64,000 nt of DNA from Chitinophagaceae bacterium (GTDB lineage Bacteria; Bacteroidota; Bacteroidia; Chitinophagales; Chitinophagaceae), in NCBI GenBank assembly GCA_040290035.1, contig PSMG01000005.1, positions 17,727 to 81,726 on the forward strand, written 5' to 3'. Position numbers and translations under genes: made by a program. Under the pieces are notes generated by a model. It saw nothing but the letters and a program-made list of their open reading frames with translations, was not told where the DNA came from and did not search any database. This document shows positions 15,845 to 43,138 of this stretch, piece by piece; within the stretch, counting starts at the first letter, position 1; each line of letters begins with the position of its first letter.

Positions 15845-16180
15845 AAAAAATTATTCAAAGAGAAAAAAGTGCTCAATTTATTCGAGCCGGTGAACAATGG
15901 TATGGCTTACTTGATAATATGATTTTTCTATATATCAGCAGTAAAAGAATAAATAAAGCGGATTTTCATTTTCTGTAATTGATCGCGGTACTATACAGCA
16001 AAGGTTCAACATCACCATTAAGCATAAACGAAAATATTTACAAGCTAAGGTATAAACAGAAATTTGATTTATTTGTTGGTTTGCCGGCGCAACTGAAATT
16101 TTCAATCTTGAAAATATTATCTTGGAATCTACTTTTTACGATCTGCCACATTTAATCTCTTTTAACCTGTTCTATCTACT

Positions 16181-18570: not shown

Positions 18571-18730
18571 AAAGAAAAACCCTCCACATAAGAGGGGTGC
18601 TTCAATGGTGTTCGTTCAGCGGTGTTAGGAGTTTGTTTTCTTAGGCTAAAGATTGGTTTTCATTTTCATAAGCATAAATAGGTTTTTATAAGGTTTGGTT
18701 CAACCGCTGAAAGGAGAATACCGTGCCAAA
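18571..18730 (-). ncRNA. Candidate sigma54-like short transcript A
   Basis: TTTGGCACGGTATT at 18730-18717, A/C-rich body with MLMKMKTNL* (18675-18646), ACGAACACCA (18615-18606), hairpin CCCTC/GAGGG plus U-tract (18596-18571). Confidence 0.5.
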
Positions 18731-18910: not shown

Positions 18911-19234
18911 TTAGGGTTTGTATTTAGCTAATTCTTCGGCTTTCATTTGTACTTCTTCCAACCGGGTATAATTTACTGAGTAATAAATTTTCTTTCCTTC
19001 TCTTTTGGTAACAACAAAACCTGCTGCCCGAAGGATGGCTAATTGTTGCGAGGTAACGGATTGCTCCAAACGAAGTTTGATATAGATTTCTGTAACCGTC
19101 AGGCGTTCAAATTGATGCATCAACGAAAGCATTTGCTGGCGCAGTTTGTGATTGATGGCCCTTAAAATAATAGCTGCTTTTTTCAGCTGAATAATTTGAA
19201 GGTCCAAGCCATTTTCCTGAAGCGTTACAGACAT
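18911..19234 (-). CDS. ArsR/SmtB family transcriptional regulator
   Basis: LRAINHKLRQQML, LEQSVTSQQLAILR, KREGKKIYYS winged HTH. Confidence 0.9.
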   Translation of the reverse strand: MSVTLQENGLDLQIIQLKKAAIILRAINHKLRQQMLSLMHQFERLTVTEIYIKLRLEQSVTSQQLAILRAAGFVVTKREGKKIYYSVNYTRLEEVQMKAEELAKYKP

Positions 19235-19493
19235 GTTAGTTTAGGTTTAATTGGTTAAGATAACTGCTGTTCGCAAAATCGTTTGTGTAAAAACGTTAAG
19301 CAGGAAGTAAGTGCCGATAAAGTACAGTTGTTTGTCGATAAGGTTGTTTATGTAACCAAATATTCGGTTTTATTTTAATTAGAAGCATACTGTTTACTTA
19401 TCGTAGTTCTACGAGGCCGTAAGTAATTTCCATAAAAGAAAATAGGGCATTTATGCTATTGTTTTGGCCTTGTGGCGGCTGTATGTTTGTACC

Positions 19494-19746
19494 AGAAGTT
19501 GATTGATGAATCATCAATTTAAAACAAATCCAAATCCTAACAGAAAGACAAAACAATATCCAGAATACCAAGTCGATCAACTTCTTGTTGTATCCTTTGA
19601 AAGTCCGTTTTTGATCCATGTGTCCTAAAGAAAACTACCAACCCTATGAAAAGCTGAAAAGGCGTCCTATCTCCGACTGAGAACTAATTAGGATTATTAA
19701 AACGCCTTGAAATAAAAAACCCTCTTCTTTGGAAGAGGGTTTTTTG
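19494..19746 (+). ncRNA. Candidate ~250-nt structured sRNA
   Basis: Promoter box TATGTTTG at 19482-19489 with TTG 20 bp upstream; perfect 10-bp pairing 19494-19503/19576-19585; a 3' stem; terminator at 19715-19746. Confidence 0.55.
19715..19746. terminator. Bidirectional intrinsic terminator
   Basis: AAAAAACCCTCTTC-ttt-GGAAGAGGGTTTTTT. Confidence 0.85.
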
Positions 19747-19785: not shown

Positions 19786-20661
19786 TTATGATTTTGGCTG
19801 TTCTAACAATTTAAAGAACTGATCCAACTGTGGCAGAATGACAATGCGTGTACGGCGATTAGCTGCTTTACCTTCTGCCGTATCGTTGCTTTGCAAGGGA
19901 AGATATTCGCTACGGCCACCAGCTGTCATACGCTTTGGATCGATATTGAATTTGTTTTGCAATAAACGAACAACTGCTGTGGCACGCTTCACACTCAAAT
20001 CCCAATTGTCCTGTACACAACTGCTTTTGATAGGCACATTATCTGTATGGCCTTCTACTAAAAATTCGATGTCGGGTTTGCTGTTTAATACCTGCGCCAC
20101 TTTGCCCAACACGGTCATTGCTCTATCGGAAACATCGGAGCTACCGCTTTTAAATAAAAGCTTATCCGAAATAGAAATGAACACAGCGCTTTTATCTACC
20201 TTGATCTCAATGTCGGTATCATTAATATCGTTCAAGGCACTTTTCAAATTAGTAACCAAGGCAAGATTCAATGAATCTTTCTTATTCATGGCTCTTTGCA
20301 AATCTTGTATATAAGCATCCTTAGCGCCGATATTGTCTAACGATTTTTTAATACTTTCTGCCTGGGCACTACTAATTACTGAAAGATCTTTCAACTGGTT
20401 TACCATTGTATTGTTGTTCTCTTTCATGAAAGCGACCTGCTTGTTCAGCCCTTCAATTTCTGTTTCCAACTGTGCTTTCTTTCGTGCTGCTTCCGATTGA
20501 TCATCACGACATTTTTTTAGATCGTCCTGCACCTGCTGATAAAACGTATTGAGCTTTGCATACTTGTCTTGCTCTGCCTGCAACTCCTTTCTACTAACAC
20601 AAGAAACAAATAGTGTTGCTGATAACAACACCCACATTGATTGTTGAATCTTCATATACAT
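19786..20661 (-). CDS. OmpA/MotB-family lipoprotein with a coiled-coil stalk
   Basis: Lipobox FVSC; coiled coil; LLFKSGS, VEGHTDN, NWDLSVKRA, ANRRTRI. Confidence 0.9.
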   Translation of the reverse strand: MYMKIQQSMWVLLSATLFVSCVSRKELQAEQDKYAKLNTFYQQVQDDLKKCRDDQSEAARKKAQLETEIEGLNKQVAFMKENNNTMVNQLKDLSVISSAQAESIKKSLDNIGAKDAYIQDLQRAMNKKDSLNLALVTNLKSALNDINDTDIEIKVDKSAVFISISDKLLFKSGSSDVSDRAMTVLGKVAQVLNSKPDIEFLVEGHTDNVPIKSSCVQDNWDLSVKRATAVVRLLQNKFNIDPKRMTAGGRSEYLPLQSNDTAEGKAANRRTRIVILPQLDQFFKLLEQPKS

Positions 20662-42316: not shown

Positions 42317-42898
42317 TTATTTTTTGATGATTACCGGGGTGCCAATTGGAATATAACTGTACAGGTCTTCAACATCTGCCCGCTTTAGCGAAATACAACC
42401 ATCCGTCCAGTTTTTATAACGATCAATAACAAAGTCTTCATGTGGCCAGGTACCATGAATACCTACGCCGGCGCCAGGCGTTGCCCATGCAGGAATTTCT
42501 CCTCTGCGCTTGCGTTCCTGAAACCTGGCTATACTTTCCGGGGTTGGATAATCTAAACCCATATAACGATCCCACTTATCGTGTACCCGTTTGTTGACAA
42601 TTCGAAAGGTTCCTTCAGGTGTGTTTTTATCACCCTCCATTCTTTTATCGGCCAGGGAGCTGTTACCAAAAACAACAGGATAAGTAGCATACCAACCTTT
42701 AGTATCATAAACACTTAGCTCATATTTCTGCTTTTCAATAACAATACGCAACGGAGGGATGGGCATCGATAAAAGTTTGTGCGCCGTATTTGCAGTATAG
42801 GCAGGCAATGCAGTAGTTTTTGTGGTAGTGCTATTATGAAATTTAGCAACAAGACTGCCTCCTACCAGCATACAAGAAAGTATGATTGTTGTTTTCAT
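42317..42898 (-). CDS. L,D-transpeptidase (YkuD) family protein
   Basis: EGDKNTPEG, GIHGT...WTDGCISL catalytic His/Cys. Confidence 0.9.
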   Translation of the reverse strand: MKTTIILSCMLVGGSLVAKFHNSTTTKTTALPAYTANTAHKLLSMPIPPLRIVIEKQKYELSVYDTKGWYATYPVVFGNSSLADKRMEGDKNTPEGTFRIVNKRVHDKWDRYMGLDYPTPESIARFQERKRRGEIPAWATPGAGVGIHGTWPHEDFVIDRYKNWTDGCISLKRADVEDLYSYIPIGTPVIIKK

Positions 42899-43138
42899 GT
42901 GCACATCAATTTGTGTTTTTCAATTACCATATAAAATTTACTTTAAAAAAATCGTTGCTAAGTGGTAAAATTGCCCGATCATTTTTAAAGTTCATTTCAT
43001 AATATGGATAGAGTTTTAAAACCATTCTTTTCCCAAAAATATTTTTGTTGAGGAAATATTTAACGGAATTTTTTTACAACAAGAAAAAATCCTGCCGAAA
43101 CCGGCAGGATGATCTGTGTATGACTATTCAAAAAATTA

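What the first reader, a model, noticed from the sequence alone, without database searches (positions are those of the whole stretch)
19459..19746. ~250-nt structured sRNA candidate with repeated UCC motifs between arsR and the OmpA-family gene
Seen: a promoter (TTG, 20 bp, TATGTTTG), a perfect 10-bp long-range stem AGAAGTTGAT/ATCAACTTCT, a competing hairpin ATTGATGA/TCATCAAT, a 3' stem AAGGCGT/ACGCCTT and a strong terminator. At least eight TCC motifs lie in A/C-rich context (AAATCC, AATCCT, ATATCC, GTATCC, AGTCCG, GATCCA, TGTCCT, CGTCCT). It also holds a possible 40-codon ORF (MNHQFK..) and a 3-codon ORF MKS* in the same CCTATGAAAA context as units A and B. Inference: a protein-titrating sponge RNA, analogous to CsrB's repeated GGA but with a different motif, possibly for Bacteroidota RRM proteins.
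Basis: partly seen in the sequence, partly recalled or inferred. Interest (0 to 1): 0.62.

Follow-up and report, generated by a model that had tools for sequence, protein, structure and literature searches.

The report
Multi-site sponge RNA for FopS-like sRNAs
The flagged stretch is a real gene for a ~250-base non-coding RNA of an undescribed multicopy family found only in Chitinophagaceae, and its repeated UCC motifs are best read as about six docking sites for a small FopS-like regulatory RNA of the same genome, which makes it a sponge for an RNA, not for a protein.

Summary
There are nine TCC in 224 nt against 2.2 expected.

The unit is one of four copies in this genome. It belongs to a family of more than 100 distinct units, 1-8 per genome, in 54 of 151 Chitinophagaceae genomes sampled. 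I found none in other Bacteroidota, none in Rfam, and no match in GenBank phage records.

Conserved parts are a Bacteroidota promoter with upstream boxes, a 14-bp 5'/3' closing stem whose only variation is U-A/U-G, and a G-poor unstructured body. The 40-codon ORF is not conserved.

The new result is that the body consists of ~25-nt modules complementary to the single-stranded 5' end of a ~58-nt, almost invariant FopS-like sRNA. That sRNA has two genes in this genome.
- Family RNAs carry 6.3 sites of -12 kcal/mol or better, against about 2 after dinucleotide shuffling.
- 62 of 106 hold a perfect complement of 10 nt or more, against 5 of 530 shuffles.
- All 54 genomes with the RNA also carry the sRNA.

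Most likely it is a regulated multi-site decoy for FopS-like sRNAs. The sponge idea is supported; the protein (RRM) partner is untested.

The parts
19402..19413 (+). Palindromic box CGTAGTTCTACG about 90 nt upstream of the RNA start; candidate transcription-factor site
   Evidence: CGTA-N4-TACG-like boxes recur at this position in many copies (CGTAGATCTACG, CGTAATCTTACG, CGTTGATTTACG). 'tttac' is conserved at about -87..-83 in the 104-unit consensus. Function is inferred.
19420..19461 (+). Conserved upstream block TAAGTAATTTCCATAA-N-AAAATAGGGCATTTATGCTATTG, ending in the -33 TTG (19459-19461)
   Evidence: Consensus of 104 units: gtaA.t.c..ta.....aAAAt.gggcA.t..tgC..TTg; alignment. In this genome the box occurs, at up to 2 mismatches and in this promoter context, only at the family copies on C29, C37 and C64.
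19482..19489 (+). -7 promoter box TATGTTTG (Bacteroidota TAnnTTTG type)
   Evidence: T, A and TTTG are invariant in 21/21 aligned copies while the nn positions and the 20-nt spacer vary. The E. coli-type sigma-70 scan finds no promoter for this unit, as expected for this phylum.
19494..19745 (+). Predicted transcript, about 252 nt, from the start of the 5' arm to the terminator T-run
   Evidence: The start is inferred from the distance to the -7 box. The end is inferred from the terminator. Covariance model R1 matches window 19480-19593 with 76.7 bits, E = 2e-14.
19494..19507 (+). 5' arm AGAAGTTGATTGAT of the closing stem
   Evidence: Invariant in nearly all copies. It pairs with 19572-19585. 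99.7% of cells are paired over 21 copies. RNAalifold predicts the same stem and nothing else.
19502..19518 (+). Proximal hairpin (TTGATG/CATCAA) that competes with the closing stem; its loop holds the ATG of the non-conserved ORF
   Evidence: Present in most copies but missing in 5 of 21 aligned copies (L011, L013, L014, L018, L020).
19525..19550 (+). Predicted FopS-like sRNA docking site 1 (CAAAUCCAAAUCCUAACAGAAAGACA)
   Evidence: RNAduplex -21.6 kcal/mol with sRNA nt 2-26.
19553..19570 (+). Docking site 2 (ACAAUAUCCAGAAUACCA)
   Evidence: -14.7 kcal/mol. It corresponds to the family's conserved AAAAUCCAAUAUC site next to the 3' arm.
19572..19585 (+). 3' arm GTCGATCAACTTCT of the closing stem
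   Evidence: Variation in the family is only A/G opposite U (U-A to U-G). That keeps pairing on the plus-strand RNA and would give C-A mismatches on the minus strand.
19589..19608 (+). Docking site 3 (UGUAUCCUUUGAAAGUCCGU)
   Evidence: -17.7 kcal/mol.
19612..19637 (+). Docking site 4 (UGAUCCAUGUGUCCUAAAGAAAACUA)
   Evidence: -21.6 kcal/mol.
19637..19657 (+).
   Evidence: -23.0 kcal/mol, the best site in the window's RNA. CCUAUGAAAA is the exact complement of sRNA nt 5-14 (UUUUCAUAGG). It ranks among the strongest sites in the whole genome.
19659..19708 (+). 3' hairpin AAGGCGU/ACGCCUU enclosing docking site 6 (19663-19686, -13.5 kcal/mol)
   Evidence: The stem is a subfamily feature, present in 15 of 104 units.
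19714..19745 (.). Intrinsic terminator, A-run + CCCTCTTC/GAAGAGGG + T-run. It is bidirectional and also lies 41 nt downstream of the convergent OmpA gene stop (19786).
   Evidence: The weak Rfam matches in the region fall mainly on this hairpin. 69 of 106 family units have a terminator within 300 nt.

Best explanation
Window 19494-19745 (+) encodes a stand-alone, non-coding RNA that is probably conditionally expressed. It belongs to an undescribed multicopy family restricted to Chitinophagaceae.

The RNA starts with a 14-bp stem that closes a 64-nt loop. It continues as a G-poor, unstructured tail and ends in a hairpin and an intrinsic terminator.

The loop and tail consist of about six degenerate ~25-nt modules of the form (A/G)AUCC-N-(A/U)UCC-U-N-GAAAAACC. 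Each module is complementary to the single-stranded 5' end (CGGUUUUUCAUAGGAUAUUGGAUUUU) of a ~58-nt FopS-like sRNA. That sRNA has two genes elsewhere in the genome (contigs C16 and C39).

The proposed mechanism is that, when transcribed, each molecule base-pairs with several FopS-like sRNA molecules. Their seed is thereby sequestered, and possibly degraded together with the sponge. The mRNAs that the sRNA would otherwise silence at their start codons are released. With 4-5 sponge genes of about 6 sites each against 2 sRNA genes, the system would act as a high-capacity buffer or switch.

Shown here: the family, the strand, the non-coding nature, the complementarity and its statistics, and the nested phyletic distribution.

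Inferred: transcription, physical pairing in vivo, the direction of control (sponge versus target), the inducing signal, and the mRNA targets of the sRNA.
For: 1. It is a real family.
- BLAST finds matches of the region, some of them multiple per genome, in 28 of 61 related genomes.
- Model R1 finds 4 copies in the own genome.
- R1 hits 54 of 151 Chitinophagaceae genomes, with 1-8 copies each.
- No convincing hit was found in about 270 other genomes of the order or about 284 other Bacteroidota.
- Named records are Ferruginibacter, Flavisolibacter, Ginsengibacter, Hanamia, Terrimonas and Puia.

2. Strand and transcription signals.
- The TTG / TAnnTTTG promoter has a variable spacer.
- The closing stem is 99.7% paired, and all 16 variant cells are U-A/U-G or A-U/G-U.
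- 69 of 106 units have a terminator within 300 nt.

3. Motifs.
- TCC is enriched 3.4x, ATCC 6x, and AATCC/ATCCA 8x over shuffles. The median is 8 TCC per RNA.
- TCC-TCC spacing peaks at 6-7 nt, which matches the spacing of the two GGA in the sRNA. A second peak at about 18-26 nt matches the length of the sRNA seed.

4. Complementarity to the sRNA.
- The real seed gives 7.6 sites per RNA and a mean best energy of -22 kcal/mol. Twenty shuffled seeds give 0.7-5.8 sites and -4.7 to -15.8.
- There are 6.3 sites of -12 or better, against about 2.0 for dinucleotide-shuffled targets. The best energy is -21.2 against -12.4 to -14.8.
- A perfect complement of 10 nt or more occurs in 62 of 106 RNAs (AAAATCCAATATC in 23), against 5 of 530 shuffles.
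- In the genome-wide scan, several of the 40 best windows after the sRNA's own antisense fall in the ~1.2 kb of UCC-RNAs.
- The sRNA positions paired most often are GGAU 13-16 and UGGA 19-22, at 0.82-0.98.

5. Distribution and linkage.
- All 54 genomes with the RNA have the sRNA. 50 of the 97 genomes without it also have the sRNA (Fisher p = 7e-12, not corrected for phylogeny).
- In 6 of 97 units the sRNA gene lies 180-284 nt upstream on the same strand.

6. The partner is FopS-like.
- Its 5' end, GUUUUUCAUAGGAUAUUGGAUUU, aligns with the Rfam FopS consensus GUUUUUCAUgG-UAUUAGAUUU.
- It has its own -7 box and a terminator stem that varies in sequence between copies, and its 5' end is predicted to be largely unpaired.
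- In B. thetaiotaomicron, FopS blocks translation by pairing next to start codons (PMC11697453).
Against: - There is no expression or interaction data.
- The sRNA seed is almost invariant, so no co-variation between seed and sites can be tested.
- The duplex energies ignore intramolecular structure and any proteins.
- Part of the signal is compositional: U/G-rich shuffled seeds that contain GGAU reach up to 5.8 sites.
- Own-genome mRNA start regions pair with the seed no better than with shuffled seeds. The six SusC-type genes have ordinary start regions. So the regulon that a sponge would relieve is unidentified.
- The closing stem is conserved in sequence with no compensatory change. The sponge model does not explain this, and it hints at an additional partner.
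- The FopS-like label rests on a match far below threshold (15.6 bits against a 56-bit gathering score).
- The phyletic nesting is not corrected for phylogeny.
Confidence: 0.6

Rival explanations
1. The single-stranded (A/G)UCC(A) repeats would titrate an RNA-binding protein such as one of the RRM proteins, a KH-domain protein or Rho, in the way CsrB titrates CsrA. The complementarity to the FopS-like sRNA would be secondary, or would serve to displace the protein.
For: - The repeats are numerous, regularly spaced and lie in unstructured, G-poor RNA.
- The genome encodes at least 6 single-domain RRM proteins and shows no Hfq, CsrA or ProQ.
- In Bacteroides the RRM protein RbpB binds single-stranded sRNA regions and interferes with FopS action.
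- The invariant closing stem could be a protein site.
Against: - The conserved unit is not a 3-5-nt motif. It is a ~25-nt module that mirrors the whole sRNA seed, including the GAAAAACC part that pairs with GGUUUUUC.
- Perfect 13-nt complements are common.
- No candidate protein co-occurs with or neighbours the RNA. Neighbours vary and none is an RNA-binding protein.
- Protein binding cannot be tested with these tools.
Confidence: 0.17
2. The hierarchy is reversed. The long RNA would be the effector, a multi-seed regulator or scaffold acting on GGA-containing targets, and the FopS-like sRNAs would be its antagonists or guides.
For: - The same complementarity data apply, and they are symmetric.
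- The RNA has an elaborate, conserved upstream regulatory region, as a primary regulator would.
Against: - The sRNA is far more widespread (104 of 151 genomes against 54 of 151) and is present in every carrier of the RNA. So it has a function without the long RNA, but the reverse is not seen.
- The sites are many and degenerate while the sRNA seed is invariant. That is the signature of a decoy, not of a seed.
- Homologous FopS sRNAs are themselves the regulators in Bacteroides.
Confidence: 0.13
3. It is a small mRNA coding for the 40-residue MNHQFK... peptide or the MKS mini-ORF.
For: Both ORFs exist in the window.
Against: - The ATG lies in the variable loop of the proximal hairpin.
- The longest ATG ORF has a median of 7 codons across 106 units, and only 13 reach 30 codons, with unrelated peptides.
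- There is no Pfam match.
Confidence: 0.02
4. It is not an RNA gene. It would be the 3' UTR or terminator region of the OmpA gene together with the promoter or leader of arsR on the minus strand, or a repeated DNA element such as a MITE with terminal inverted repeats.
For: - The terminator is bidirectional and sits 41 nt after the OmpA stop.
- The minus strand also folds well.
- The 14-nt arms are inverted repeats.
Against: - Family copies sit in many different gene contexts.
- The plus-strand promoter is conserved while its spacer varies.
- Stem variation is G-U-compatible on the plus strand only.
- Conservation extends 100 nt upstream of the 'repeat', unlike a MITE.
- There was no match in GenBank phage records, and the conserved 5' pattern occurs in a single IMG/VR viral contig.
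Confidence: 0.03

Closest known systems
Base-pairing sponge RNAs (anti-sRNAs) of enterobacteria: SroC for GcvB (PMC4474525), 3'ETS-leuZ for RyhB/RybB, the chbBC spacer for ChiX, AgvB for GcvB
   Same: An RNA whose function is to pair with the seed of a trans-acting sRNA and so relieve that sRNA's targets. The decoy sites resemble target sites.
   Different: - By my background knowledge, the known examples have one or two sites and are mostly by-products of mRNAs or tRNA precursors that work with Hfq.
- This RNA is a dedicated gene with its own regulated promoter and about 6-8 sites per molecule.
- It is present in 1-8 copies per genome, in a phylum without Hfq.
- Its function is predicted here, not shown.
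FopS / GibS sRNAs and RbpB of Bacteroides thetaiotaomicron (Rfam RF04319; PMC11697453, PMC7366714)
   Same: - The predicted partner has the FopS build: a single-stranded 5' seed that includes an anti-start-codon CAU, then a terminator hairpin.
- It is multicopy and shares about 19 of 21 seed positions with the FopS consensus.
- In Bacteroides, FopS activity is also countered by titration.
   Different: - In Bacteroides the titrating agent described is a protein, RbpB. The words 'sponge' and 'decoy' do not occur in the main text of PMC11697453.
- The RNA studied here is the antisense-like counterpart, not a FopS member.
- The partner itself scores only 15.6 bits against the 56-bit Rfam threshold.
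CsrB/CsrC, RsmX/Y/Z (CsrA/RsmA-sequestering RNAs) and CrcZ (Hfq/Crc sponge)
   Same: Long non-coding RNA built from many repeats of a short motif in accessible context. Multicopy, with its own regulated promoter, and acting by titration.
   Different: - The motif is UCC, not GGA or A-rich, and GGA occurs once.
- The motifs are not presented in hairpin loops.
- CsrA and Hfq were not found in the genome.
- The ligand proposed here is an RNA.
Eukaryotic competing endogenous RNAs and target mimics (CDR1as/ciRS-7 for miR-7; plant IPS1 for miR399)
   Same: Many tandem, imperfect sites for one small regulatory RNA on a dedicated non-coding transcript. In the sponge sites the centre of the sRNA, including its CAU, pairs less often (0.33-0.58), so the start codon of a real target is usually not mimicked.
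   Different: Different domain of life and machinery (no Argonaute). The resemblance is by analogy only.

Membership tests
Any Rfam family (6S and Bacteroidota motifs included) | Score at or above the family's gathering threshold | tested here: not met
   There were 0 matches in the whole window and 0 in ten related loci. At relaxed E-values the weak matches fall mainly on the terminator hairpin, e.g. BTnc231 at 22 bits against 80.4.
Base-pairing sponge RNA / anti-sRNA | Extended complementarity to the seed of a trans-acting sRNA encoded in the same genome, beyond chance | tested here: met
   Six sites of -13.5 to -23 kcal/mol in the window's RNA. The sRNA genes are on C16 and C39.
Base-pairing sponge RNA / anti-sRNA | Sponge and sRNA co-occur | tested here: met
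   54 of 54 genomes with the RNA carry the sRNA pattern, against 50 of 97 genomes without it. This is not corrected for phylogeny.
Base-pairing sponge RNA / anti-sRNA | Both RNAs are expressed, and the sponge lowers the sRNA's level or activity | not testable with these tools
CsrB/RsmZ-type protein sponge | Repeated (A)GGA motifs, mostly in hairpin loops, and a CsrA/RsmA protein in the genome | tested here: not met
   GGA occurs once in the RNA and has a median of 1 per family RNA. There is no CsrA hit by tblastn at E <= 0.01.
CrcZ-type Hfq sponge | A-rich (ARN) repeats and Hfq present | tested here: not met
   No Hfq was found by tblastn. A-rich spacers exist, but they form part of the antisense modules.
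FopS (RF04319), applied to the partner sRNA and not to the flagged RNA | Rfam gathering score of 56 bits; a single-stranded 5' R1 seed followed by a terminator hairpin | tested here: inconclusive
   The score is 15.6 bits with E about 1, so formal membership is not met. The seed alignment (about 19 of 21 positions) and the architecture do match.
Small protein-coding mRNA | A conserved open reading frame | tested here: not met
   The median longest ATG ORF is 7 codons over 106 units, and there is no Pfam hit.
RRM-protein (RbpB-like) ligand | Direct binding by an RRM protein | not testable with these tools
   At least 6 RRM genes are present, but there are no binding data and no genomic linkage.

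The most novel reading that the evidence does not exclude
Chitinophagaceae would run a bacterial 'competing endogenous RNA' circuit. Several dedicated, signal-induced sponge genes, each with 6-8 or more tandem decoy sites, would buffer or switch off a whole family of FopS-like start-codon-blocking sRNAs. RNA-RNA titration would then do here what the RRM protein RbpB does in gut Bacteroides. To my knowledge this would be the first natural multi-site sRNA sponge family in bacteria, and the first sponge described in Bacteroidota.
Probability: 0.5. Interest if true: 0.82.

Novelty: new variant of a known kind. Interest (0 to 1): 0.72.

Why it matters
Post-transcriptional control in Bacteroidota is poorly understood. 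The phylum lacks Hfq, ProQ and CsrA, and only a handful of sRNAs (GibS, FopS, MasB) have mechanisms.

A dedicated, multicopy RNA carrying many decoy sites for a FopS-like sRNA would add a new layer, RNA-versus-RNA titration with high capacity. It would show that tandem-site sponge architecture, known from eukaryotic microRNA sponges and from protein sponges such as CsrB, also evolved for bacterial base-pairing sRNAs.

It also gives an immediately testable pair of RNAs with exact sites. Cultured carriers exist, for example Ginsengibacter hankyongi BR5-29. The conserved promoter architecture points to an unknown regulator and signal.

Tried and rejected
- **Rfam.** Gathering and relaxed thresholds gave nothing for the flagged RNA. 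RF04319 FopS scores only 15.6 bits for the partner.
- **Coding potential.** Rejected.
- **Conserved gene neighbourhood.** Only one syntenic locus recurs: a CBS-domain cysteine-synthase-like gene upstream in 31 units, with a periplasmic-binding-like gene downstream. Otherwise the contexts vary. arsR and OmpA are not conserved neighbours.
- **mRNA targets of the FopS-like seed.** The whole-genome scan and the start-codon scan give candidates that look, from their sequences, like secreted or outer-membrane proteins (not checked against Pfam). There is no enrichment over shuffled seeds: 23 start regions at -18 or better, against 7-32.
- **SusC/RagA genes.** The six genes have ordinary start regions, -8 to -17.5 kcal/mol. 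A FopS-like role in SusC control is therefore not supported in this genome.
- **Full 23-nt complement in mRNAs.** None found.
- **Phage or viral origin.** No match in GenBank phages. One IMG/VR contig holds the 5' pattern and none holds the sRNA 24-mer.
- **3' hairpin as a family feature.** Rejected; it occurs in 15 of 104 units.
- **Sigma-54 reading of the GGCA-N5-TGC box.** Rejected by inspection of the spacing: 9 nt, not 12, between the GG and GC elements.
- **Earlier notes.** A sequence look-up did not find this family.
Full report
**Observation**

The 551-bp spacer lies between an ArsR-family gene (18911-19234, minus strand) and a convergent OmpA-family gene (19786-20661, minus strand).
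- TTG (19459-61), a 20-nt spacer and TATGTTTG (19482-89).
- The arms AGAAGTTGAT / ATCAACTTCT. They extend to 14 bp (19494-19507 with 19572-19585) with two G-U pairs.
- A proximal hairpin (19502-19518).
- The stem AAGGCGT / ACGCCTT (19659-65 with 19702-08).
- A strong terminator (19720-19745) flanked by A- and T-runs, so it is bidirectional.

TCC occurs nine times in 224 nt. Shuffles give 2.2 +/- 1.3, and 0 of 5000 shuffles reach nine. GGA occurs once.

The predicted fold keeps the long-range stem, the 3' stem and the terminator, and leaves the rest open. The minus strand folds about as well. Strand and function therefore had to be settled by comparison with other copies.

**It is a family**

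A BLAST of the spacer against related genomes showed that window ~19397-19600 is repeated within this genome and in its relatives. Oriented copies share four parts:
- An upstream block, TAAGTAATTACCATAA ... AAAATAGGGCA-N5-TGCnATTG.
- A spacer of fixed length but free sequence, followed by TAnnTTTG.
- The invariant AGAAGTTGATTGAT.
- An A/C-rich stretch of 60-240 nt, then AAAATCCAATATCAGTCAACTTCT.

A covariance model (R1) finds:
- Four copies in this genome: C29, C37, C69 and the window.
- 54 of 151 sampled Chitinophagaceae genomes, with 1-8 copies each and sometimes in tandem.
- No convincing hit in other families of the order or in about 284 other Bacteroidota.

Named records with the 5' pattern are Ferruginibacter, Flavisolibacter, Ginsengibacter, Hanamia, Terrimonas, Puia and unclassified Chitinophagaceae. 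Rfam has nothing for it.

**Strand, ends, coding**

- The promoter hexamers are invariant while the bases between them vary.
- The closing stem is paired in 99.7% of cells. Every variant is U-A to U-G or A-U to G-U, which is neutral on the plus-strand RNA and disruptive on the other strand.
- RNAalifold finds this stem on its own and no other consensus structure.
- There is no compensatory double change, so the stem is conserved in sequence. That remains unexplained.
- 69 of 106 distinct units have an intrinsic terminator, giving total lengths mostly of 240-300 nt.
Across the family the longest ATG ORF has a median of 7 codons.
- Neighbouring genes differ between copies.

The unit is therefore an autonomous, non-coding, plus-strand transcription unit.

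**What the UCC motifs are**

Over 106 units the body is 44% A, 24% C, 22% U and 10% G. TCC is 3.4-fold enriched, ATCC 6-fold, and AATCC/ATCCA 8-fold. GAAAA, TGAAA and AAACC are enriched too. Successive TCC are spaced either 5-8 nt or about 18-26 nt apart.

I searched the genome for the complement of the most conserved motif, AUCCAAUAUCC. This gave two homologous intergenic units, on C16 and C39. They read CGGTTTTTCATAGGATATTGGATTTTA, followed by a G+C-rich hairpin and a T-run. Each has its own TAnnTTnG box.

This ~58-nt unit is almost invariant. Its 21-nt core, allowing up to 2 mismatches, is present in 104 of 151 family genomes, with 1-9 copies each. Its 5' 26 nt are predicted to be largely unpaired.

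I checked that claim. The Rfam FopS model aligns end to end, with the seed GUUUUUCAUgG-UAUUAGAUUU against GUUUUUCAUAGGAUAUUGGAUUU. The score is only 15.6 bits against a threshold of 56. So it is FopS-like in seed and build but is not a formal member.

In B. thetaiotaomicron, FopS sRNAs block translation of susC-type mRNAs by pairing next to the start codon, and the RRM protein RbpB titrates them (PMC11697453).

**The modules mirror the whole seed**

The reverse complement of the sRNA 5' end is UAAAAUCCAAUAUCCUAUGAAAAACCG. The family's modules, such as GAUCCAGAUCCUGAAAAACC and AAUCCAAUUCCUGAAAAAAAACC, are degenerate copies of it.

In the window's RNA, RNAduplex finds six non-overlapping sites:

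| Site | Coordinates | Energy (kcal/mol) |
|---|---|---|
| 1 | 19525-50 | -21.6 |
| 2 | 19553-70 | -14.7 |
| 3 | 19589-608 | -17.7 |
| 4 | 19612-37 | -21.6 |
| 5 | 19637-57 | -23.0 |
| 6 | 19663-86 | -13.5 |

All six lie in regions that are predicted to be open or only weakly paired.

Family-wide statistics:
- The true seed gives 7.6 sites per RNA and a mean best energy of -22 kcal/mol. Twenty shuffled seeds give 0.7-5.8 sites and -4.7 to -15.8.
- Against dinucleotide-shuffled targets, the RNAs hold 6.3 sites of -12 or better compared with about 2.0. The best energy is -21.2 compared with -12.4 to -14.8.
- 62 of 106 RNAs contain a perfect complement of 10 nt or more (AAAATCCAATATC in 23), against 5 of 530 shuffles.
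- The two GGAU blocks of the sRNA are paired in 82-98% of sites. The CAUA that would face a start codon is paired in only 33-58%.
- The 6-7-nt TCC spacing equals the spacing of the sRNA's two GGA. The ~25-nt period equals the length of the seed.
- In the genome-wide scan, several of the 40 best sites after the sRNA's own antisense fall inside the UCC-RNAs.

**Distribution and linkage**

Every one of the 54 genomes with the RNA has the sRNA. The sRNA also occurs in 50 of the 97 genomes without it. Fisher's p is 7e-12, uncorrected for phylogeny.

The sRNA therefore has a life of its own and the long RNA is an accessory. This is the expected order for a regulator and its sponge.

In 6 of 97 units the sRNA gene sits 180-284 nt upstream on the same strand. 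These are probably few independent events.

A fifth UCC-rich RNA in this genome has a promoter and a terminator but no closing stem (C29 minus strand, ~42,850-43,050). The class is therefore wider than model R1.

**Mechanism proposed**

On an unknown signal, read through the conserved upstream boxes, the cell transcribes the long RNAs. Each binds several FopS-like molecules through their seeds and frees the mRNAs that the sRNA represses.

The closing stem may protect the 5' end and present sites 1-2 in a loop. The family's best-conserved site overlaps the last three pairs of that stem, so sRNA binding could open it.

Shown here: family, strand, non-coding nature, complementarity, nesting. Inferred: expression, pairing in vivo, direction of control, signal and regulon.

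**Weak points**

- The seed's invariance prevents a co-variation test.
- Part of the pairing signal is compositional.
- I could not identify the sRNA's mRNA targets. Start regions genome-wide pair no better than with shuffled seeds, and the six SusC/RagA genes look ordinary.
- A protein partner remains possible. At least six RRM proteins are encoded, and there is no Hfq, CsrA or ProQ. A protein could also explain the sequence-invariant stem.

**Comparison with known systems and novelty**

It works like the base-pairing sponges of enterobacteria (SroC, 3'ETS-leuZ, chbBC spacer, AgvB; PMC4474525, PMC8383071). Unlike them, it is a dedicated, multicopy gene with about 6-8 tandem sites. That architecture is known from CsrB-type protein sponges and from eukaryotic microRNA sponges.

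The words 'sponge' and 'decoy' do not occur in the main text of the FopS/RbpB paper. My three literature searches on Chitinophagaceae sRNAs and Bacteroidota sponge RNAs listed no relevant paper.

I rate it a new variant of a known kind. Confidence is about 0.9 that it is a real ncRNA family and about 0.6 for the RNA-sponge mechanism.

Noticed in passing
own genome, outside the window: G000:C16:~15,850-15,915 (minus strand; locus L176) and G000:C39:21,699-21,760 (plus strand; locus L177): Two genes for a ~58-nt, nearly invariant FopS-like sRNA (CGGUUUUUCAUAGGAUAUUGGAUUUUA plus a terminator). The core pattern is present in 104 of 151 Chitinophagaceae genomes, up to 9 copies each. Rfam FopS scores only 15.6 bits.
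   Followed up: yes
own genome G000:C29 minus strand ~42,850-43,050 (contig end): A fifth UCC-rich, G-poor RNA-like unit. It has a CATCTTTG -7 box and its own terminator but lacks the AGAAGTTGATTGAT closing stem. A degenerate FopS-like sequence (TTCATAGGATTTGG) lies just upstream. Model R1 does not detect it.
   Followed up: partly
window 19714-19745: The terminator is symmetric (A-run, stem, T-run) and lies 41 nt after the stop of the convergent OmpA-family gene. It probably ends both transcripts.
   Followed up: partly
own genome G000:C44:141,634-143,366: A cluster of RNA-binding protein genes: an RRM protein (141634-141891, +), a cold-shock-domain protein (142282-142443, +) and a second RRM protein (143366-143112, -). 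The genome has at least 6 RRM genes in all.
   Followed up: no
loci L013, L014, L018, L020 and own copy C37 (L179), 3' part of the RNA: A subfamily replaces the AAGGCGU/ACGCCUU hairpin with a long hairpin, CUAUCACCAUCCUCC...GGAGGACGGUGAUAG, which contains anti-Shine-Dalgarno-like CCUCC. Function unknown.
   Followed up: no
G258:C4:93,900-94,714; G462:C26:33,906-35,061; G388:C1:2,091,893-2,092,670: Tandem arrays of two or three family copies at 300-600-nt spacing in other genera.
   Followed up: no
window 19402-19413 and the upstream regions of FopS-like genes (e.g. L003, L007, L111): Similar palindromic boxes ((C)GTAGTTnTAC(G)) occur about 90 nt upstream of the long RNAs. They also overlap the -33 region of several FopS-like genes, which hints at a shared regulator acting in opposite ways.
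   Followed up: partly
'Unit A' (18,571-18,730) has no comparable site. The exact CCTATGAAAA string occurs only once in the window, at 19643.
   Followed up: partly
L211 (IMGVR_UViG_3300034198_004682, 1128-1149): A single IMG/VR viral contig carries the family's promoter and 5'-arm pattern. It may be a prophage flank or a mis-binned host fragment.
   Followed up: no
L102, L106 (QFQQ010000xx, labelled 'MAG: Citrobacter freundii'): Two contigs carrying the Chitinophagaceae-specific RNA are filed under a Citrobacter MAG. This is probably a binning or labelling error in the public record.
   Followed up: no
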